A stretch of 64,000 nt of DNA from a virus, in the IMG/VR virus record IMGVR_UViG_3300042908_001001, positions 1 through 64,000 of that record. One strand, written 5' to 3'. The notes beneath the pieces are model-generated. The model ran no database searches, was not told where the DNA came from, and was given only the letters and a program-made list of their open reading frames with translations. This document shows, in pieces, positions 9,491 through 59,835 of the stretch (the stretch's first letter is position 1; each line of letters starts with the position of its first letter). A program made the translations under genes and the position numbers.

Positions 9491-10192
9491 ATGGCTAGAC
9501 AAAAGAGATCCGTTTCTAATGATTATGTCAATAAATTGAAAGCAGTTGCTACAAAGGTTTTAGAAGATTGGGAAAAAAGCCCGTCATCCTATGCTGAGTG
9601 CAACATCCAAAAGATAACCTTAGAACGTTGGCGAAAAGGAGATAATTTACCTAGTATCCGTTCAATAGAGAGCTTTTTAGGATTTCTCAGACTCACGATG
9701 AATCGGTGGGATGAATATCTGGACGACAAAATAGATTTTGATACCTTTTGGGGATTAAGGGGGAAAGAACTCGAAGGAAGGGTTATCACTTGGGAATCCG
9801 TAGTAAACGATGCGAGAACCCTAACCCACGAAGAAAGAATGAAAATCGTTCAAGAGTTAGCCATGATAACGGCTGATACCATCGAAAAAGTCGAATTATT
9901 TTCATTGACTAATCAGCAGTTAAAACGTCTTAATACTTTGCTGATTACCTCAAGAGGGAATTTAGGGGATGACGATCTAAAGACGTTTGAAACCATTATT
10001 AATAAAGGCGTTAGTCAGTCTTTAGTTGCCAGTATTATTGATCAAAAAATCATTGGGCTTCCTAAAAAAGAATTTGATATACTGGCAACATTTTTGTTAA
10101 AACCTAGCAGATGGGTGGGTGATACCCTGCTAGGTGTAACAAATCAATTCCTAACTAATTTCGAGGATTTAATTGATGCGCTAGGATCGTAA
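9491..10192 (+). CDS. XRE-like HTH protein, repressor candidate
   Basis: SYAECNIQKITLERWRKGDNLPS HTH; own TTGACA promoter(s) at 9428 and 9444. Confidence 0.55.
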   Translation: MARQKRSVSNDYVNKLKAVATKVLEDWEKSPSSYAECNIQKITLERWRKGDNLPSIRSIESFLGFLRLTMNRWDEYLDDKIDFDTFWGLRGKELEGRVITWESVVNDARTLTHEERMKIVQELAMITADTIEKVELFSLTNQQLKRLNTLLITSRGNLGDDDLKTFETIINKGVSQSLVASIIDQKIIGLPKKEFDILATFLLKPSRWVGDTLLGVTNQFLTNFEDLIDALGS

Positions 10193-16148: not shown

Positions 16149-17018
16149 ATGCTATTTTTAATCATGCCCACGAACCCAAAAAGTAAAGTCGATCAAAAGA
16201 TTCTAATGGATCAGTTTTTAGCTCTACGTTTACTAATGGAAGAGTCGGGCATGATTAAATGGGTAAGCAAGAATGGCAAAAAGAATTTAGAGATTGAACC
16301 CAATTGTATCAGTCAACTAAAATCTCTTTACCCTGATAAAAAAAGAGAAATTCATTTAGGAGAAAAAGCAAAAGACATTTTAGTAATGTCTGTTAAGGGG
16401 ATGGTAATCGAAGTCGCTAGATACTATCTAGCAAAGATGCGCTTAGATAATTCAAAGCTAGATGAATTGATTCAGATGGGCTACTTAGGGGCTACTTATT
16501 CCCTCTATAAGTTTAATCCAACAAAAAATATCAAATGGTCATCTTATGCTTATCTTTGGATAAAAGCCAAAATCTCTAGAGGTTCTTATCAGGATTATCT
16601 AATAAAAGCTAATTTGAAATATGAAGCCTTAATATTGACAGTCCCTCAAAGGATAAAACGTTTTGATTTACTGGCTTTTTCTACGGACTTACTTTGGATT
16701 TATCTTTCCCAAAAGACAATCTATCCTACTTATCCTTTTAAGTTTTATTCGGAAAGTCCACAGGCAGATGACGGGTATACTTCTAGTATTTTTGACACTC
16801 TCCCATGTGAAAATAACAGAAATTTAGTTGATGAAATTCATTTAATTTTATCTCAGGACGAAATTGATATTCTAATGTCAGACGATCAAACCACAAAAAA
16901 GAAAAAAGACAATGTAGGTATTCTCGAAATGGCATTAATGCAAGGGATACCGTTAGACAATTTTTACGACAAAAAACAACAAATCATCAACAAAGTAATG
17001 GAGCGTATTGAATTATGA
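16149..17018 (+). CDS. sigma70-family-like factor (region 2)
   Basis: DELIQMGYLG...KFNPTKNIKWSSYAYLWIK matches sigma regions 2.2-2.4; region 4 not recognisable. Confidence 0.75.
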   Translation: MLFLIMPTNPKSKVDQKILMDQFLALRLLMEESGMIKWVSKNGKKNLEIEPNCISQLKSLYPDKKREIHLGEKAKDILVMSVKGMVIEVARYYLAKMRLDNSKLDELIQMGYLGATYSLYKFNPTKNIKWSSYAYLWIKAKISRGSYQDYLIKANLKYEALILTVPQRIKRFDLLAFSTDLLWIYLSQKTIYPTYPFKFYSESPQADDGYTSSIFDTLPCENNRNLVDEIHLILSQDEIDILMSDDQTTKKKKDNVGILEMALMQGIPLDNFYDKKQQIINKVMERIEL

Positions 17019-18277: not shown

Positions 18278-19654
18278 TCAAATCTTAAGCTTGACGATAA
18301 TATTCCCGCGATCGCAAGTCACCCGCTCAACCAATTCCCTGAAAATATCTCTCAACTCGAAATTAGTGGCAAGTCCCCAGAAATTAGGGTCGGATGTCGC
18401 TAGTAAATGCTCACTTAATAAATGATTATTTCTTTCTCCATATTGAGCATTAATCAAATTACTTAATTTAGTTTCATCTGCAAGAATAATATCATTCAGT
18501 CTAGGATCGTTTAACGATTTTAGTTGAGTGATATTCTTTCTTAGTTCTCTAATTTCTGGACTTTCTACAATCTCAGATTCACCCTCACATCCCCATTTAG
18601 CAACCTCCTGGGAGCGTAAAATCAAGGCGTCTATCACAGCATCAATATAATCTTGAATCTTTAGTCCGTAACTGGTTCTTATGCCACAAGTCGCACTTTT
18701 TCCGCATCTTGGGTAAGCTCCGTTACAGTACAGATAATAGGCTTGTTTTCGTGCATTGATAACCGATTTGGCTGACATACGACTTCCACAAGTACAAAAT
18801 ATAGACCCTGCTAACGGATTTCTCAATGTATCTGATTTTTTCGTTGTTTTGCTTGAATCTAATATGTTTTGAATATTTAGCCATTCTGATACCGTAATCA
18901 ATGGTTCATGATGATTAGGAATTTCAATTCTTTTGTTTTGTTTCTTTGGAAAATAAACCAACGTACCAATCAATGACGGGTTTTTTAGCCAGTCAATAAA
19001 AGCCGATTGGGTGTGAGGGAAATCATCCTCATGCGCCCTTAATCTCTCAGTGCCAAATCGTTTACACAATGCCCTAACCGTTCCTGAAGCTGTTTGAATT
19101 TCATAAAAGGTATCAATCGCTATTCTTACGACTTCTGGGTAGGTTATTCCCGTATCTTTGTATAGATTCCTATTAATAATTAATTCATCATTCACCATCA
19201 AATAACCAAAACAGGGTTTAAGCGGTAAATGTTTTGATCTGCGGTGTTGCATCCCTTTTAACGCTTGCTCTTGATTTAATCGCCTCTGAAAAGCATCGGT
19301 AGCCGCGATCACACTACTGGTATAAATCCCTACTGCCGATGTAATATCAAGCTTCCCTCTGTCCAAAGAAATCATCGTCACTCGCATTCTTTCGCATCGA
19401 CTTCTCAAATCAGCCCATATCATTTCATCCCTAGCCAGTCTTGATTGCAAAGGAAAAATTAATTCATCCCCTTCTCTCAAGATTTTCATCACAAAATCCA
19501 AACCAGCCCGCCCCATCTTGCCGCCACTGATAATATCGTAATAAATATTTTCAGGCTCCACCCCCGCCGCGATCAATTCCTTGGTGTATCGCTCGCTCGC
19601 ACTATTGTCTTCAAATTGATGTAACGTTGATTGTCTCCAGTAACCGATTTTCAT
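18278..19654 (-). CDS. large serine recombinase (integrase)
   Basis: MKIGYWRQST catalytic Ser motif, SRLAR, recombinase domain, zinc ribbon (CTCG...YLYC); AGAGGGA RBS before ATG 19654. Confidence 0.92.
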   Translation of the reverse strand: MKIGYWRQSTLHQFEDNSASERYTKELIAAGVEPENIYYDIISGGKMGRAGLDFVMKILREGDELIFPLQSRLARDEMIWADLRSRCERMRVTMISLDRGKLDITSAVGIYTSSVIAATDAFQRRLNQEQALKGMQHRRSKHLPLKPCFGYLMVNDELIINRNLYKDTGITYPEVVRIAIDTFYEIQTASGTVRALCKRFGTERLRAHEDDFPHTQSAFIDWLKNPSLIGTLVYFPKKQNKRIEIPNHHEPLITVSEWLNIQNILDSSKTTKKSDTLRNPLAGSIFCTCGSRMSAKSVINARKQAYYLYCNGAYPRCGKSATCGIRTSYGLKIQDYIDAVIDALILRSQEVAKWGCEGESEIVESPEIRELRKNITQLKSLNDPRLNDIILADETKLSNLINAQYGERNNHLLSEHLLATSDPNFWGLATNFELRDIFRELVERVTCDRGNIIVKLKI

Positions 19655-19663
19655 GGCTGTCCC

Positions 19664-19717
19664 TCTATTTGTGATTCCATTATACAGCCCACCCTGTATA
19701 TTCAATGCACAAATAGA
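19664..19717. other. putative attP site
   Basis: TCTATTTGTG-N7-TATACAG-CCCACC-CTGTATA-N7-CACAAATAGA dyad directly upstream of the integrase. Confidence 0.7.
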
Positions 19718-19724
19718 CTGAAAC

Positions 19725-19931
19725 ATGGACAAGGAAAGGCTTCTGGCAAAATCAGCTTATCTCAAAGCAGTTAATACGATGCTACTCATAGGCATTGAAT
19801 CGCAATTTTTTCCGATAGCCGAAACAACCAGTTATGAATTTGCGATCGCGCTTTTGGAGTGCATCAAGTTGTCAAAAAATTTAGCTGAGGATATTTTGGA
19901 AATAATTGAAACGGGAGTAGACGAATATTGA
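19725..19931 (+). CDS. small hypothetical protein divergent from the integrase
   Basis: 68 aa; followed by a bidirectional terminator. Confidence 0.5.
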   Translation: MDKERLLAKSAYLKAVNTMLLIGIESQFFPIAETTSYEFAIALLECIKLSKNLAEDILEIIETGVDEY

Positions 19932-31785: not shown

Positions 31786-33270
31786 ATGGAAAATATTAAA
31801 ACAGATAGCGGGTTGACCGATGTGATGGACAGGGCAAATATCCCCATCAAAGAATCCGACTTAAGCTTAGGGATGATAATTGACGATGTTACGACATTGG
31901 AGCTATATCGCAGTTCTAGCCTTATTAAAAAGATTATTGACGCAATCCCTGAAGCCGCTACAGAGAAGCCCTTTAATATCGATTTAGGGGCATCATCGAG
32001 CGAAGGCGTTGATATTTATGGTGAACTCGAAAAAATACCCTGTTCTATTCATCGAAACGGATTTAGAGAAGAATTTCATGGAGTTAATGAAGCCTTTTTT
32101 GAAGCCGATCAAATGGCTCGATTATTTGGTAACTCCTATATTTTTATGGGTATCAATGACGGTCAAACAAACGATCAACCTGTCAATATAAATAATATTA
32201 CTTCGATTGATTATTTATACGTTTTATCGCATCAACAGTTAACGTCAGACGGGGCTAATAATCGCTATTTCTATTCATACAATATCAATGGACATGAGGG
32301 ATTAAAAGAAACAAATTATATTCACCCTAGTAGGGTATTAAGATTTTACGGCTCTAAGATTCCATCGGGAATAAGTATTGGAACTTATCAAGATGATTCG
32401 ATTATTCAATCTGTTTACAATTCATTCATCAGGATGTCAGGGGCTGTAGGGGCTTCTCACGATATGCTTCAAAAGCATTCGGCTTTTATTTATGCAATTA
32501 AAGGATACGAGAGTGCAATTGGTTGGCAGGAAACAAAAAGGGATTATTGGTTTAAAGGGATATTTAAGGGGGTTTTAGACGCAGTAGGTCGGACTGGGGG
32601 AATATTAATGGACGCGGGATCAACAGCTAGTTTTATTAATAGAAACTATGGAGGTGTTGATACTCTTGTAAATCTATTAATGGGTTGGTTTGTAGCACAT
32701 TCAGGATTGCCAAAATCTATGTTACTAGAAAGTAGTGAGTCATCAGCTTTTAGTGACAAGGGTTTTTCTGATAGGGTACAGTTTGCGCGTTCTACTAGTA
32801 GTTATCAATCAAATCACTATAAACCTAAATTAAAAACATTAATTAGTTATTATTTAGCGTCTAAACAATCCATTATTAAAAAAGTAGATAAGCTTGACAT
32901 TTCATTCCCTAGCGTCTTAGTTTTGACTCCAAAAGAGCAAGCGGAATTAGAGGGGATATATTCCAAAAATGATGACCTTTATATGAAGAATGGGGTATTA
33001 ACCGAAAATGAAGTTAGGCAATCTCGTTTTTCAGGGACTAACTTTGGTACAAGTATCACCCTAGATATTAATGTTACATCCGATTTAATCGAACAAAGGA
33101 GACAAGAAAAGATGACCAACCAAAACAAACTTAATCAACAGCAACAGCAACCAATTATTAAGACGGATTCGGGTGACAAAATAATTATCAATGGCGTTGT
33201 ATTGCCCCTGTCTGAATATGAGTCTATGTACGACATTGAAGAAATGGAAAAACTTGAGGACAAAAAATAG
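31786..33270 (+). CDS. portal protein (DUF1073 type)
   Basis: LYRSS.LIKKIIDAIPE, ARLFG, IHPSRVLRF, G.LTENEVR. Confidence 0.85.
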   Translation: MENIKTDSGLTDVMDRANIPIKESDLSLGMIIDDVTTLELYRSSSLIKKIIDAIPEAATEKPFNIDLGASSSEGVDIYGELEKIPCSIHRNGFREEFHGVNEAFFEADQMARLFGNSYIFMGINDGQTNDQPVNINNITSIDYLYVLSHQQLTSDGANNRYFYSYNINGHEGLKETNYIHPSRVLRFYGSKIPSGISIGTYQDDSIIQSVYNSFIRMSGAVGASHDMLQKHSAFIYAIKGYESAIGWQETKRDYWFKGIFKGVLDAVGRTGGILMDAGSTASFINRNYGGVDTLVNLLMGWFVAHSGLPKSMLLESSESSAFSDKGFSDRVQFARSTSSYQSNHYKPKLKTLISYYLASKQSIIKKVDKLDISFPSVLVLTPKEQAELEGIYSKNDDLYMKNGVLTENEVRQSRFSGTNFGTSITLDINVTSDLIEQRRQEKMTNQNKLNQQQQQPIIKTDSGDKIIINGVVLPLSEYESMYDIEEMEKLEDKK

Positions 33271-33421: not shown

Positions 33422-34090
33422 ATGAACAATCAAATAGAAATTAAAGAAGACGCTAAAACTAGGGATGATTTAATCTGGAATGATAAAGAAAAAATCTACT
33501 ATCACGCTAACGGTAGGAAAATTTCTCAATATCAGATGCTTCAGTTAATTAGGCGTGAACAAAAAGCGTTTAATCAAGATATTGACGTTTACACTAGAGG
33601 GTTATTAAATAAGGCTATAAGTTTTGAAGATTATCAAAAGTTAGTTAAGGAGTCTGTCAGGGATTCTCATGTTCAAATGATGCGATTGGGTCGCGGTGGG
33701 AAGGAACGGACGGCGGCTATCCATTATCTAGACGTTGCCAACGAATTAAGGGAAAATCAATACCCCCCGTTGAGGGATTTATTTCAACAGTTAGCCGATG
33801 GTAAGCTTTCGGAAGCTCAACTCAAGGCAAGATTAAAAGCATACATCAAGGCTTCCAAAATCAGCTTTGAGCGGGGTAGAGAAAGCCAGCAAGCCATGAT
33901 TAAGCCGATGGAGGTTAGATTGTTAGGCTCTACCGATAGGCACTGCTCAGATTGCATTTATTACGCAAGTAGGGGTATTCAACCATTGGGGACGTTGCCA
34001 GTCCCAGGGCAAGCTTGCCAGTGTCGTCAAAACTGCCTTTGCTCTAAGATTTTTGGGACTCTTGAGGAGTTGGTAAAAAGATTAGCTTGA
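33422..34090 (+). CDS. head morphogenesis protein (Mu F-like)
   Basis: C-terminal HCSDC...PG..CQCRQNCLC; follows the portal. Confidence 0.75.
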   Translation: MNNQIEIKEDAKTRDDLIWNDKEKIYYHANGRKISQYQMLQLIRREQKAFNQDIDVYTRGLLNKAISFEDYQKLVKESVRDSHVQMMRLGRGGKERTAAIHYLDVANELRENQYPPLRDLFQQLADGKLSEAQLKARLKAYIKASKISFERGRESQQAMIKPMEVRLLGSTDRHCSDCIYYASRGIQPLGTLPVPGQACQCRQNCLCSKIFGTLEELVKRLA

Positions 34091-34115
34091 CAAAAATTAA
34101 AACATTTATTATGAT
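34087..34115 (+). promoter_or_regulatory. sigma70 promoter of the ncRNA locus
   Basis: TTGACA-17 nt-TATGAT. Confidence 0.8.
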
Positions 34116-34121
34116 TTTAGA

Positions 34122-34427
34122 TAAGGTGATCAAGGCTAGTGAATCCCGAATGGGTGTACCGTTCAGTGACCCACGAGCGTAGTAAGAACGATAAGAGTTG
34201 CACTTATCCATTTATACGGATAAGTCTAGTAATGATCTCCTTTAACGGGCGGAATAGAAAGTGGATTCTCTCGGAATGATCAACCGAATGGTATGTCACA
34301 TCCGTCCATTCCCGTTTTCGGGATACATGGGAGAGATGATAGGGAGTACCCTAAAAAGTGCGATGAACTATCACCACTCCAGCCTAGTGAAGTGTGTCCC
34401 GTTTTCGGAAAAACAAGGCGATCAAAA
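34122..34427 (+). ncRNA. structured non-coding RNA region of unknown class
   Basis: Nested helices GATCA..GCTAG/CTAGT..TGATC, TGGGT/ACCCA, ACTTATCC/GGATAAGT, GGGCGGA/TCCGTCC, TGATAG/CTATCA; no credible ORF. Confidence 0.55.
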
Positions 34428-34526
34428 GCGGCTAATGGCGGAAATATGAGAGACGCGCTTGATTTTATCAGGTTCTTATCCCCTTTTTGAGGGTAAGAGT
34501 CCAGTTGCAAGTTCTGGTTAGCCGCG
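34428..34526 (+). ncRNA. tRNA-like RNA: 8-bp acceptor, long variable arm, 5-nt anticodon loop
   Basis: GCGGCTAA/TTAGCCGC; D arm GCG/CGC; CTTGA-TTTTA-TCAGG; TCTTATCC/GGGTAAGA; CCAG/CTGG. Confidence 0.65.
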
Positions 34527-34539
34527 ATCGCCTTTAATT

Positions 34540-34610
34540 GGGGAGTTAGCAAAGAGGTAATGCAGGGGAGATTCGTCCCCGACACTCAGGTTCGAGTCCT
34601 GAACACCCCA
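34540..34610 (+). tRNA. tRNA-like RNA with 6-nt anticodon loop (pseudo-tRNA or mimic)
   Basis: GGGGAGT/ACACCCC (one mismatch), D arm GCA/TGC, GGGGA-GATTCG-TCCCC, perfect T arm TCAGG-TTCGAGT-CCTGA. Confidence 0.75.
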
Positions 34611-34612
34611 TT

Positions 34613-34792
34613 TTATTTATCCTTAACCGAATTTTGCCCTGTAAGGTATCCGAGTATTCCCCCGATGCCTACCTTGGCAATATCCCCCGCAATGGGAAGG
34701 GATTCAATCGGGTTTTCCCAAGGTTTAGACGATAGCCAAATCACGACAATGGCAGTCACCACAAAGATAGGCAAAAACTCAGCAAGTTTCAT
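34613..34792 (-). CDS. small two-helix membrane protein, holin candidate
   Basis: Hand translation MKLAEFLPIFVVTAIVVIWL...GDIAKVGIGGILGYLTG (59 aa); ATG overlaps the upstream stop. Confidence 0.55.
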   Translation of the reverse strand: MKLAEFLPIFVVTAIVVIWLSSKPWENPIESLPIAGDIAKVGIGGILGYLTGQNSVKDK

Positions 34793-35046
34793 TTAATATT
34801 CCTGTTATTTTTAATGACAAGTAGAGCTATTTTAGGGATTGTAACCCCCATCCAAAAAAGATTAAGCCATGTCGATGAATAAGCACCGTAAAACCCAGTA
34901 TAAATTACAAGAAACAATCCCCCTAAAAAATTAGAAATAAGATATGAAAACGAGTCTGTTGTGATTTTTTTGTTAAAACTTAAATAATAAGACCCTAATA
35001 CTAAAATCGTTCCAATCCACCCAAGAATATCAATTAATAGTTTCAT
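34789..35046 (-). CDS. 3-TM membrane protein (CBU_0592-like)
   Basis: DILGWIGTILVLGSY...Y...N.LGG...AY....LN.FW. Confidence 0.7.
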   Translation of the reverse strand: MKLLIDILGWIGTILVLGSYYLSFNKKITTDSFSYLISNFLGGLFLVIYTGFYGAYSSTWLNLFWMGVTIPKIALLVIKNNRNIK

Positions 35047-54611: not shown

Positions 54612-54747
54612 AGCACGAAACCCAAAAACTTAACCGCGATCGCCTATCCTCACCCGATAGGCTTTTTAATACAATAACCCATAGACAAAATCTATCCCAA
54701 TCCACAAAACCATAGGCATACTAAATAATAGTATCTCATCTCAATAG

Positions 54748-54816
54748 AATGAGAATGATTATCATTCTCATTTTGTTCCATAGATGGTTTCTATGATGAT
54801 AATGATAATCATTCTC
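54748..54816. promoter_or_regulatory. tandem Fur-box-like sites
   Basis: 25-bp palindrome AATGAGAATGAT-T-ATCATTCTCATT, and GATAATGATAATCATTCTC (18/19 to the Fur consensus). Confidence 0.7.
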
Positions 54817-54969
54817 ATTTTTAATACCCTTTACGCTATATATAGGTTAGGGAGCTTGTGTGTATTTGAAAACATTTAGAATCCGAGTAGAAATGTTTTG
54901 AGATTGTAGCCTGTTTTTAATTGACAAGCATATTTTATAATGTTAAGATGGAAAATAAAAAGGTAGATT

Positions 54970-58753: not shown

Positions 58754-59476
58754 ATGGTACTTGCAGTAAATAGTAATCAGAGAGCGCGATTTGTAAAAAG
58801 TTTAGGGATTGACGAAAATAGTCTCCCTTTTGTATTATTCCCTAAACAATCTTTAATTCAGTCGGTTAGTAACTTAGTGACTGAATCGGTCGCTGGTTTT
58901 GATATTCCCATTATTAATGATTTTACGCCTTCCGAGAAACTCCTTTTTACCGCGATTGATTTAAAAGCCCGTCCTCTCTATATTGAATATCAGGAAGTCA
59001 ATGAGGATCTGGCAGAAGCATTGTCTTTGGTCGTTACCGCCGATGGTTCGCCATTAGTTCCCGATGGAATTGAACCGATTAAATTCATCACTCCTGATTC
59101 TGAATTTGTGCAATCAGAGATTTATACACAAATCACAAAATCACAGTCTTACAAGCGATTTAAACGTGACAACCGTGAGCTATTTGACGATCAGGATCAG
59201 GTCTATACGAAACTGATTATCCTTGACCTCACAATGGGACGTGCCAAAGTTGCTTTATTCCTTTCTACTCGGATTGATACAACTTGGTTTGATCGTGCAA
59301 ACGAGTTAAGTGTTGAGCAAATTAAGGAGATTGTGCAATTTATCCAGAAGGAAGGTAACGGGGGTAAAACGGAAGATGAACCAACAGAAGAAGACGAAAC
59401 TAAAGGAGAGGTAGTTACCGAAAAAAACGACTCCAACAAGAAATCGAAAGATGGTCAGATCACTACTGGGAACTAG
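58754..59476 (+). CDS. tail assembly chaperone (gpG-like)
   Basis: Position after the tube gene; slippery A-AAA-AAC at 59422-59428. Confidence 0.7.
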   Translation: MVLAVNSNQRARFVKSLGIDENSLPFVLFPKQSLIQSVSNLVTESVAGFDIPIINDFTPSEKLLFTAIDLKARPLYIEYQEVNEDLAEALSLVVTADGSPLVPDGIEPIKFITPDSEFVQSEIYTQITKSQSYKRFKRDNRELFDDQDQVYTKLIILDLTMGRAKVALFLSTRIDTTWFDRANELSVEQIKEIVQFIQKEGNGGKTEDEPTEEDETKGEVVTEKNDSNKKSKDGQITTGN

Positions 59477-59835
59477 CGATCGCGCTTCCTAACGATGATA
59501 GATTTGATTATAGAAATTTTGCCAATCAATCACCTAGATTAATTAGGCAAGCACTCAATCAAATCTATCAAAAAAGGAACCTTGACCAGTATTCTACGGC
59601 TTTAGGGATTTCAACTTATGCAAACGCTAATAGAGGAGAAAATAGTCAGCCTATTGAGTTTTATCAATTCTTACCTCATCCATTAGTTTGGAGACAAAAT
59701 AATACTCAGAAGAAAATAAATATTAGTAAGAATACAGCGATTCAATTCTTAGCTGATTACTCTAGCTTTACCTCTGAAATGTTATCCGTCTTTGATGAAT
59801 GGATGGATGAGATAAGAATGACAGCAAGCGGTTAA
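59422..59835 (+). CDS. -1 frameshift extension of the tail chaperone (gpT-like)
   Basis: Open -1 frame KKRLQQEIERWSDHYWELAIALP...IRMTASG* with no start codon near its 5' end. Confidence 0.75.
   Translation, partial: KKRLQQEIERWSDHYWELAIALPNDDRFDYRNFANQSPRLIRQALNQIYQKRNLDQYSTALGISTYANANRGENSQPIEFYQFLPHPLVWRQNNTQKKINISKNTAIQFLADYSSFTSEMLSVFDEWMDEIRMTASG

What the first reader, a model, noticed from the sequence alone, without database searches (positions are those of the whole stretch)
34087..34427. Unclassified structured RNA transcribed ahead of the tRNA-like elements
Seen: a consensus promoter followed by ~300 nt of relatively GC-rich DNA with no credible ORF. It forms a multibranch domain (about 34128-34237, closed by GATCA..GCTAG/CTAGT..TGATC), a cloverleaf-like unit with acceptor GGGCGGA/TCCGTCC and D-like arm but no T arm (34247-34308), a repeated CCCGTTTTCGG hairpin (34311, 34398) and a GGAG..TGATAG/CTATCA..CTCC domain (34330-34380). 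I cannot match it to hammerhead, HDV-like, tmRNA or riboswitch cores. Inference: a new phage ncRNA or processing element.
Basis: partly seen in the sequence, partly recalled or inferred. Interest (0 to 1): 0.7.

Follow-up and report, generated by a model that had tools for sequence, protein, structure and literature searches.

The report
Degenerate tRNA-like leader RNA in cyanophage
A promoter-driven, gene-free 300-base stretch in a cyanophage-like virus looks mostly like a worn-down duplicate of the two tRNA-like genes that follow it, plus a hairpin insert. It has no known relatives, so its function and even its structure remain unproven.

Summary
The promoter is near-consensus and belongs to a class this phage uses repeatedly. 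The stretch holds no publicly called gene and is richer in G+C than the genome.

There is no Rfam match at E<=10 on either strand. The folding evidence is weak:
- Plus-strand z is only -1.8.
- The minus strand folds better.
- The 'cloverleaf' at 34247-34307 is unstable.
- The two CCCGTTTTCGG 'hairpins' are outcompeted by a long-range helix.

A covariance model of the downstream tRNA-like element 1 with its GAUC stalk finds domain 1 (34123-34242) as its best non-self hit in about 285 kb of strand space. The hit has the same 120-nt length and a 292-nt offset, and the next 20 nt also match (p=0.004).

My reading is that the region is the 5' part of one non-coding precursor. It would be a diverged tandem copy of the tRNA-like pair that has lost its T arms, plus an 87-nt insert bracketed by an exact 12-nt repeat.

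The scan noted this stretch once more, in the overlapping window of the same genome, and never on other DNA. Interest is modest.

The parts
34087..34115 (+). Sigma-70-type promoter TTGACA-17-TATGAT. The predicted start is at about 34122-34123, which is the first base of the domain-1 stalk.
   Evidence: 11 of 12 matches. The same TTGACA-17-TAnnnT class lies just upstream of start codons, in the right orientation, at many other sites in the window. The start site is inferred from spacing and was not measured.
34123..34242 (+). Domain 1: a 120-nt module closed by the stalk AAGGUGAUC (34123-34131) / GAUCUCCUU (34234-34242), with three internal hairpins. It is a probable copy of tRNA-like element 1 that has lost its T arm.
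   Evidence: MFE and pair probabilities: outer stem 0.5-0.95, hairpin 34202-34225 at 0.96. Model R1 of 34415-34534 hits exactly 34123-34242 on the plus strand at 13.7 bits. This is the best non-self hit in 64 kb of the window and 78 kb of related phage DNA.
34234..34262 (+). Junction or leader, GAUCUCCUUUAAC plus the start of domain 2. It repeats the junction in front of tRNA-like element 2 (34526-34552).
   Evidence: Direct repeat D1, 19 of 27 identical, spacing 292. The 20 nt beyond the end of model R1 match 11 of 20 at the same offset, p = 0.004.
34247..34307 (+). Domain 2: a 7-bp GGGCGGA/UCCGUCC helix around a weak interior. It is possibly a decayed copy of tRNA-like element 2 whose T arm was lost to small deletions.
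   Evidence: The helix is present in sequence. z is -0.4 and the pairing probability is 0.01-0.80 depending on context. Model R2 scores it 8.8 bits, rank 13 among non-self hits, which is not significant.
34310..34408 (+). Domain 3: an exact 12-nt direct repeat TCCCGTTTTCGG (34310-34321 and 34397-34408) bracketing a 75-nt core. It contains the long-range helix 34319-34328/34392-34401 and the hairpin 34330-34380.
   Evidence: z is -2.8 on the plus strand. Removing one repeat plus the core (87 nt) reduces the 292-nt offset to 205 nt, roughly the length of the tRNA-like pair. The insertion reading is an inference.
34415..34534 (+). tRNA-like element 1 with its 9-bp stalk AAGGCGAUC/GAUCGCCUU. It lies outside the finding and is the template for the domain 1 comparison.
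   Evidence: inverted repeat I2; P 0.97. ARAGORN calls it tRNA-Lys(UUU) with a long variable arm only at a relaxed threshold. There is no Rfam tRNA hit.
34540..34610 (+). tRNA-like element 2 (6-nt anticodon loop) followed by a U-rich tail at 34611-34620. This is the probable 3' end of the transcript.
   Evidence: Rfam tRNA at 42.8 bits on the plus strand only. ARAGORN gives an undetermined anticodon. No canonical terminator was found on the plus strand.

Best explanation
ANATOMY
The finding is the 5' two-thirds of a single non-coding transcript of about 490 nt. The transcript starts at about 34122-34123 from a host-type promoter and ends after tRNA-like element 2.

The finding is not a new fold class. 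I read it as a diverged tandem copy of the downstream pair:
- Domain 1 corresponds to tRNA-like element 1 with its GAUC stalk.
- The junction and domain 2 correspond to the leader and tRNA-like element 2.
- Both copies have lost the T arm.
- An 87-nt hairpin insert (domain 3), bracketed by an exact 12-nt repeat, lies in the spacer between the two copies.

HOW IT MOST LIKELY WORKS (inferred, not shown)
- The RNA folds into stalk-closed modules.
- Host endonucleases cut in or next to the stalks and leaders (RNase III, E or P type processing).
- The upstream, T-arm-less modules are a leader or by-product with little function of their own.
- Any tRNA-mimic activity resides in the two downstream elements.

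WHAT IS SHOWN AND WHAT IS NOT
- Shown: the promoter class, the absence of genes, and the paralogy signal.
- Inferred: transcription, processing and function.
For: - Promoter: 11 of 12 matches, of the phage's own recurrent TTGACA-17 class.
- No called gene lies between 34091 and 34612 in any public copy.
- G+C is 45% against 37.6%.
- Model R1 of element 1 plus stalk finds 34123-34242 on the plus strand as its top non-self hit in about 285 kb of strand space. The hit covers the full 120 nt at offset 292.
- That hit shares the stalk AAGGYGAUC/GAUCKCCUU, a CUAG acceptor remnant and the CUUAUCC..GGRUAAG hairpin. The hairpin shows one U-A to A-U flip.
- The 20 nt beyond the model match 11 of 20 at the same offset, p = 0.004. 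Repeat D1 supports this.
- The T-arm region is deleted in domain 1 (0 nt against 19 nt) and eroded in domain 2.
- Relatives at 39-50% protein identity, and phages S-CBS4 and Cr-LKS4, have unrelated genes here. The locus is therefore an accessory insertion with its own promoter.
Against: - The R1 hit has E = 0.29 on its own, and the next background hits score 11.8-12.8 bits.
- Ungapped identity at offset 292 is 54 of 140, z 3.5, and is not the best offset in the window.
- Global alignments beat shuffles only at 10 of 300 and 31 of 300.
- R2 does not recover domain 2 significantly.
- The minus strand of 34122-34427 folds better than the plus strand.
- There is no transcript data, no homologue and no plus-strand terminator.
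Confidence: 0.45

Rival explanations
1. Decaying relic with no role. The stretch is the dead half of a duplicated (or once larger) tRNA gene cluster. It is being eroded by deletions and is kept only because it lies between the promoter and the surviving elements. It is either not processed into anything stable or not expressed at all.
For: - Both upstream modules have lost the T arm.
- The domain 2 cloverleaf is thermodynamically unsupported.
- There is no plus-strand folding excess.
- The stalk has a U-U mismatch where element 1 has C-G.
Against: - Phage genomes rarely keep 300 nt of junk.
- The stalk, the 34202-34225 hairpin and the 10-bp long-range helix are still well paired.
- The exact 12-nt repeat shows no decay.
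- The predicted transcription start coincides with the first base of the stalk.
Confidence: 0.25
2. Independent new structured RNA. Domains 1 to 3 would form a functional fold (regulatory, protein-binding or catalytic) unrelated to tRNA mimicry. It would be made as a stable small RNA in the manner of T4 RNAC and RNAD.
For: - It has its own strong promoter, raised G+C and no ORF.
- Domains 1 and 3 have z of -2.4 and -2.8.
- UUCGGGAUACA has three alternative partners: the local CCCG, 34392-34401 and 34140-34150. The two distant partners each follow a CUAGUGAA motif. This arrangement resembles a conformational switch.
Against: - No Rfam relative and no homologue anywhere searched.
- The plus strand is not favoured.
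- Many other loci in the same phage fold far better.
- Part of the region is explained by paralogy to element 1.
Confidence: 0.15
3. DNA-level or minus-strand element. The inverted and direct repeats would serve one of these roles:
- protein-binding sites (the CCCGTTTTCGG pair, or five GATC sites for the phage Dam-type methylase);
- the end zone of the convergent leftward operon, whose last gene stops at 34613;
- an antisense RNA.
For: - The minus strand of 34091-34612 has z -6.0.
- The minus-strand window 34261-34380 has the lowest raw MFE of 2130 windows.
- On the minus strand the element 1 stalk is followed by G-UUUUU (34414-34409). A weak terminator-like hairpin lies at 34377-34360.
- CCCGTTTTCGGG-type palindromes form iteron-like arrays in 39 unrelated phage contigs.
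- GATC occurs five times in 400 nt, against 3.6 per kb genome-wide.
Against: - There are only two CCCGTTTTCGG copies and no array.
- The GATC density is not the highest in the genome.
- The larger minus-strand z comes mostly from weaker shuffled backgrounds, because the helices are largely Watson-Crick.
- The tRNA-like elements and the strong promoter are on the plus strand.
- The replication genes lie 20 kb away.
Confidence: 0.12
4. A small protein is encoded. Candidates are the 46-aa GTG ORF at 34139-34279, which sits behind an AAGGUGA Shine-Dalgarno-like motif, and the 65-aa ATG ORF at 34293-34490.
For: These ORFs exist, and the first has an SD-like motif 9 nt upstream.
Against: - None is in the public protein collection, although the flanking genes are.
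- The 101-aa minus-strand ORF finds nothing, not even itself.
- The 65-aa ORF runs into tRNA-like element 1.
- The SD-like motif is one strand of the domain 1 stalk.
Confidence: 0.03

Closest known systems
Phage T4 RNAC and RNAD (small stable RNAs of the T4 tRNA gene region)
   Same: They are non-coding RNAs of unknown function made by a phage alongside its tRNA genes. PMC9697503 calls them 'RNAs of yet unknown functions'. Their position in the tRNA cluster and their co-processing are from my own knowledge. The context matches: a phage, tRNA-type genes on the same strand, and no ORF.
   Different: There is no sequence or Rfam relation. The downstream genes here are non-decoding tRNA look-alikes, not working tRNAs. 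Stability and processing are unknown. The region here appears to derive from the neighbouring tRNA-like genes themselves.
tRNA pseudogenes or degenerate duplicates in tRNA gene arrays
   Same: There is a tandem copy of a tRNA-type unit with eroded arms. The module length (120 nt) and the flanks are shared.
   Different: The parent units are themselves atypical: an 8-bp acceptor plus a 9-bp stalk, and anticodon loops that are not 7 nt. The copy keeps well-paired helices and carries an 87-nt insert.
Phage tRNAs that counter tRNA-targeting defences (T5 tRNA-Lys against PARIS, PMC11464382; anticodon-loop variants, PMC10264068; tRNA against retron effectors, PMC11555353)
   Same: The RNAs are phage-borne and tRNA-shaped, with altered anticodon loops. 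Element 1 is Lys(UUU)-like under relaxed ARAGORN settings. The locus is accessory and has its own promoter.
   Different: Those are functional, decodable tRNAs. The modules in the finding region lack T arms and are not recognised by any tRNA model. No defence context is known for the host.
GOLLD and ROOL large ornate RNAs (often next to tRNAs in prophages; from my own knowledge)
   Same: A phage or prophage setting, next to tRNA-type genes, multi-domain and non-coding.
   Different: There is no Rfam hit to either family at E<=10. The region is about 300 nt rather than 500-800 nt, has no family of relatives and shows no strong fold signal.
rRNA-type processing stalks (complementary flanks cut by RNase III; from my own knowledge)
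   Same: Domain 1 and element 1 are each enclosed by a 9-bp flank-to-flank helix that extends the inner stem.
   Different: The stalks are short (9 bp plus 5-8 bp, with a bulge). No cleavage has been shown.

Membership tests
tRNA (Rfam RF00005) or tRNA-Sec | Cloverleaf with a T arm and T-loop consensus, and a score above the family threshold | tested here: not met
   No hit at E<=10 in 34100-34440 on either strand. In 33900-34800 only 34540-34610 scores. Default ARAGORN finds nothing in the finding region. Domains 1 and 2 have no T arm.
tRNA (Rfam RF00005) or tRNA-Sec | Stable acceptor, D and anticodon helices in the 34247-34307 'cloverleaf' | tested here: not met
   z is -0.4. Acceptor probability is 0.01-0.80 depending on boundaries, and the D-like arm is at most 0.10.
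tmRNA (standard or permuted) | tRNA-like domain plus a tag reading frame with a canonical C-terminal tag, detected by ARAGORN or Rfam | tested here: not met
   Default ARAGORN finds none. Only at an 80% threshold does it call a 'permuted tmRNA' at 34151-34610. That call has a 29-aa tag ending MAEI and runs through tRNA-like element 1. There is no Rfam hit.
Self-cleaving ribozymes, riboswitches, group I/II introns, RNase P, 6S, Y RNA/YrlA, GOLLD, ROOL (all Rfam 15 families) | Match to the family covariance model | tested here: not met
   Zero matches at E<=10 for 341 nt on both strands with lax filters. There were none at gathering score over the 64 kb, although that run also missed the real tRNA hit and is therefore the weaker negative.
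Paralogue of tRNA-like element 1 (34415-34534) | Significant structure-aware match, collinear and in the same orientation | tested here: inconclusive
   For: 13.7 bits over the full 120 nt, and the top non-self hit in 64 kb plus 78 kb. The flank beyond the model matches at p = 0.004. Against: E = 0.29, the shuffled-alignment tests are weak, and offset 292 is not the best ungapped offset.
Evolutionarily conserved structured RNA (any class) | Covariation supporting the helices across homologues | not testable with these tools
   No homologous DNA was found in the phage collection, plasmids, 8 related IMG/VR records, 401 cyanobacterial genomes or by pattern scans.
Phage tRNA-cluster small stable RNA (T4 RNAC/RNAD type) | Co-transcription with tRNA-type genes and processing to a stable species | not testable with these tools
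   Only the context is met: promoter, same strand, no ORF.

The most novel reading that the evidence does not exclude
The whole 490-nt transcript is a purpose-built array of four tRNA-derived modules, none of which can decode. It would be released by cutting at GAUC-containing stalks and used by a temperate cyanophage as a decoy or sponge for host tRNA-binding factors, such as anticodon nucleases of defence systems, tRNA-modifying enzymes or RNase P. The T-arm-less upstream modules would be specialised variants rather than debris.
Probability: 0.12. Interest if true: 0.75.

Novelty: new variant of a known kind. Interest (0 to 1): 0.33.

Why it matters
If the reading holds, this records how a phage accessory RNA locus evolves. 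A non-decoding tRNA-like pair was duplicated in tandem, one copy lost its T arms, and a short insert landed between the copies, all under one host-type promoter.

That history is useful when judging 'orphan structured RNAs' next to phage tRNA genes, because it suggests many may be derivatives of their neighbours. If the modules are functional tRNA mimics, the locus would extend the recent finding that phages use tRNA-shaped RNAs against tRNA-targeting defences (PMC10264068, PMC11464382) to non-decoding decoys in cyanophages.

As it stands the evidence supports only a plausible, lineage-restricted non-coding transcript.

Tried and rejected
KNOWN RNA FAMILIES
- Rfam at gathering score over the 64 kb and at E<=10 on 901 nt and 341 nt: nothing in the finding region.
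- ARAGORN, default and relaxed, with introns and mitochondrial modes. It gave only a spurious permuted tmRNA, spurious armless mitochondrial tRNAs and one intron-bearing minus-strand 'tRNA-Gly'. All rejected.

SEARCH FOR HOMOLOGOUS DNA
- blastn against phages and plasmids: no match.
- Own genome: self only.
- 401 cyanobacterial genomes: only 20-38-nt matches. On inspection these were T-arm, HIP1 or AT-rich coding chance hits.

SEARCH THROUGH NEIGHBOURING PROTEINS
- The portal protein and the 222-aa protein alone: nothing.
- An alignment of 20 homologues found 8 IMG/VR loci and 3 metagenome loci at 39-50% identity. None had a similar RNA, a tRNA at that site or conserved right-hand genes.
- The genome-contig collection: nothing.

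PATTERN SCANS
- A domain 3 23-mer: nothing.
- The stalk pattern: nothing.
- The element 2 pattern: ordinary tRNAs only.
- The doubled CCCGTTTTCGG pattern: unrelated iteron arrays.

OTHER TESTS
- The 101-aa minus-strand ORF as a protein: no hit.
- Model R1 on related virus records: nothing.
- Attachment-site idea for the sequence after element 2: rejected as chance.
- Origin of replication: not favoured, because there is no iteron array.
- Literature searches found no description of this element.

Full report
SETTING

The window is bases 1-64000 of a 76.5-kb IMG/VR virus record. It is a tailed phage:
- It encodes a portal protein (31786-33270), a major capsid protein, tail proteins, thymidylate synthase, a ribonucleotide reductase small chain, a large serine recombinase and several DNA methylases.
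- HIP1 (GCGATCGC) sites are visible in the sequence.
- Its nearest named relatives are the cyanophages S-CBS4, Cr-LKS4 and CL131. A cyanobacterial host is therefore likely.

The finding lies at a convergent junction. The rightward 222-aa gene that follows the portal gene ends at 34090, and the last leftward gene ends at 34613. Relatives at 39-50% identity of the 222-aa protein, as well as S-CBS4 and Cr-LKS4, have unrelated protein genes at this spot. The locus is therefore a lineage-specific accessory insertion.

CHECKING THE OBSERVATION

Promoter. It reads TTGACA-17-TATGAT, 11 of 12 matches. Perfect TTGACA boxes with a 17-nt spacer and a TAnnnT -10 box lie just upstream of start codons, in the right orientation, at many other places in the window. 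This promoter therefore belongs to a class the phage really uses. The expected start, about 7 nt past the -10 box, falls on the first base of the domain 1 stalk at 34123. That position is an inference.

Coding. None of the ORFs inside 34091-34612 exists in the 15-billion-protein collection, whereas the 222-aa, 59-aa and 85-aa neighbours do, each on 6-7 public contigs.

Composition. G+C is 45% against a mean of 37.6%.

Known families. Rfam gives nothing at E<=10 on either strand, even when only 341 nt are searched with the laxest filters.

IS THE STRUCTURE MORE THAN CHANCE?

Only weakly.
- Against dinucleotide shuffles the plus strand of 34122-34427 has z = -1.8. Domain 1 has -2.4, the 'cloverleaf' -0.4 and domain 3 -2.8.
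- In a scan of all 2130 windows of 120 nt on both strands, the plus-strand windows here rank 233 to 1181. Other loci reach z = -6 to -10.
- The minus strand of the finding region folds better: -93.0 against -85.9 kcal/mol, z -3.7, and z -6.0 for 34091-34612.
- The tRNA-like part at 34428-34611 prefers the plus strand, as a sense RNA should: -59.2 against -52.3 kcal/mol.
- Pair probabilities single out as robust the domain 1 outer stem (0.5-0.95), the 34202-34225 hairpin (0.96), the UGAUAG/CUAUCA stem (0.93) and a 10-bp long-range helix, 34319-34328 with 34392-34401 (0.4-0.9).
- The cloverleaf acceptor swings between 0.01 and 0.80 with the choice of boundaries, and its D-like arm never passes 0.10.
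- The two CCCG-UUUU-CGG hairpins are at 0.05-0.07, because their bases are used by the long-range helix.

WHAT THE REGION IS MADE OF

Internal repeats gave the lead:
- The junction in front of domain 2 (34234-34260) resembles the junction in front of tRNA-like element 2 (34526-34552), 19 of 27 identical.
- Element 1 is enclosed by a perfect 9-bp flank-to-flank helix, AAGGCGAUC/GAUCGCCUU.
- Domain 1 is enclosed by AAGGUGAUC/GAUCUCCUU.

I built a covariance model (R1) from element 1 with its stalk (34415-34534) and searched with filters off.
- The best non-self hit in the 64-kb window is 34123-34242 on the plus strand, at 13.7 bits, covering all 120 model positions.
- In a further 78 kb of related phage DNA the best score is 12.8 bits, and all those hits are short hairpins of 24-48 nt.
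- The alignment pairs the two stalks, a CUAG remnant of the acceptor stem, and the hairpin ACUUAUCC..GGAUAAGU with the variable arm UCUUAUCC..GGGUAAGA. That hairpin shows one U-A to A-U flip.
- The 19-nt T-arm segment is absent from domain 1.
- Both modules are 120 nt long and lie exactly 292 nt apart.
- At that fixed offset the 20 nt beyond the model's end match 11 of 20, p = 0.004 both by binomial and empirically.

Taken together I rate a tandem duplication covering 34123-34262 as probable, at about two in three. The caveats are real:
- E = 0.29 for the R1 hit alone.
- Global alignments beat shuffles only at 3% and 10%.
- Offset 292 is not the best ungapped offset in the window.
- A model of the leader plus element 2 (R2) scores domain 2 at 8.8 bits, rank 13 among non-self hits.
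- A gapped alignment suggests the 3' part of domain 2 is an element 2 T arm eroded by small deletions. This is not significant on its own.

Domain 3 looks like an addition.
- An exact 12-nt repeat, TCCCGTTTTCGG, brackets a 75-nt core. The 10-mer CCGTTTYGG form (CCGTTTTYGG) occurs nowhere else in the 76.5-kb genome.
- Removing one repeat plus the core (87 nt) turns the 292-nt period into 205 nt. The element 1 plus element 2 unit is 197 nt.
- That arithmetic fits an insertion into the spacer between two tandem copies. I could not test this further.

A scan for the doubled motif returned 39 IMG/VR contigs. These are tandem iteron-like arrays in unrelated phages, not homologues.

HOMOLOGUES

None could be obtained. 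Searches of the phage and plasmid collections, eight related virus records, 401 cyanobacterial genomes and several pattern scans were all negative. Proteins 78-81% identical to the neighbouring gene exist on Logan, ENA and JGI contigs. Covariation, which is the decisive test, is therefore open.

INTERPRETATION

Best reading, 0.45. The finding is the 5' part of one non-coding precursor. It consists of a degenerate tandem copy of the tRNA-like pair plus an inserted hairpin. It is probably separated from the downstream elements by cleavage at the stalks and leaders, and has little function of its own.

Rivals:
- A pure relic with no role (0.25).
- A DNA-level or minus-strand element, such as the end zone of the leftward operon (0.12). 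On the minus strand the element 1 stalk is followed by G-UUUUU.
- A small protein (0.03).

The closest known situation is the pair of small RNAs of unknown function in the phage T4 tRNA region (PMC9697503; their location is from my own knowledge). Phage tRNAs that defeat tRNA-targeting defences are the most interesting analogy (PMC10264068, PMC11464382, PMC11555353). The modules here are not recognisable tRNAs, so this is a working analogy and not a membership claim.

EARLIER NOTES OF THIS SCAN

The same stretch was noted again from the overlapping window of the same genome (e1-6014749). The two downstream elements were noted separately (e1-6014738). Nothing similar was recorded on other DNA.

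Noticed in passing
window 34428-34526: tRNA-like element 1 is called tRNA-Lys(UUU) with a long variable arm by ARAGORN, but only at a relaxed threshold. If the anticodon stem is read as 4 bp, the loop is AUUUUAU. It sits on a 9-bp stalk plus an AAAA bulge. tRNA-Lys(UUU) is the target of PrrC and PARIS, so this is a possible lead for the neighbouring finding.
   Followed up: partly
L018 950-1900 (G003:C1, about 27.7-28.6 kb): In a distant relative, a tRNA-Cys gene lies in an ORF-free stretch of about 860 nt. The stretch is built of repeated GTC-rich units and CTAGGGG(T)TAATTCCCCTAG hairpins on both sides of the tRNA.
   Followed up: no
L021 1501-1641 (G003:C1:16373-16513): A 141-nt match to the Rfam tRNA model (40 bits) carries an insertion of about 70 nt between the D region and the T arm. 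ARAGORN calls nothing there. It may be an intron-bearing or otherwise atypical tRNA.
   Followed up: no
L098-L136 (39 IMG/VR contigs): Tandem arrays of CCCGTTTTCGGG-type palindromes with a period of about 18-24 nt occur in many unrelated phage contigs. They look like iterons or repeated protein-binding sites, and several families of arrays share the same core motif.
   Followed up: no
window 54721-54840 (+), 10021-10140, 59461-59580, 18481-18600: These are the strongest local folds in the window (z from -6 to -10 for 120-nt windows), far above anything in the finding region.
   Followed up: no
window 55683, 57607, 58289 (+): Three TTGACA-17-TAAGAT promoters are each followed by the same GGTTAGTATAAACC mini-hairpin and a purine-rich ribosome-binding site.
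   Followed up: partly
window 1-64000 (Rfam runs): The gathering-threshold Rfam run over the whole window reported no match, although the tRNA hit at 34540-34610 scores 42.8 bits against a cut-off of 29 in the small-region run. The fast filters lost it, so whole-window negatives should be read with care.
   Followed up: yes
window 18278-19732 (-), 16149-17018 (+): The window encodes a large serine recombinase, which suggests a temperate lifestyle, and a sigma-70-like protein.
   Followed up: no
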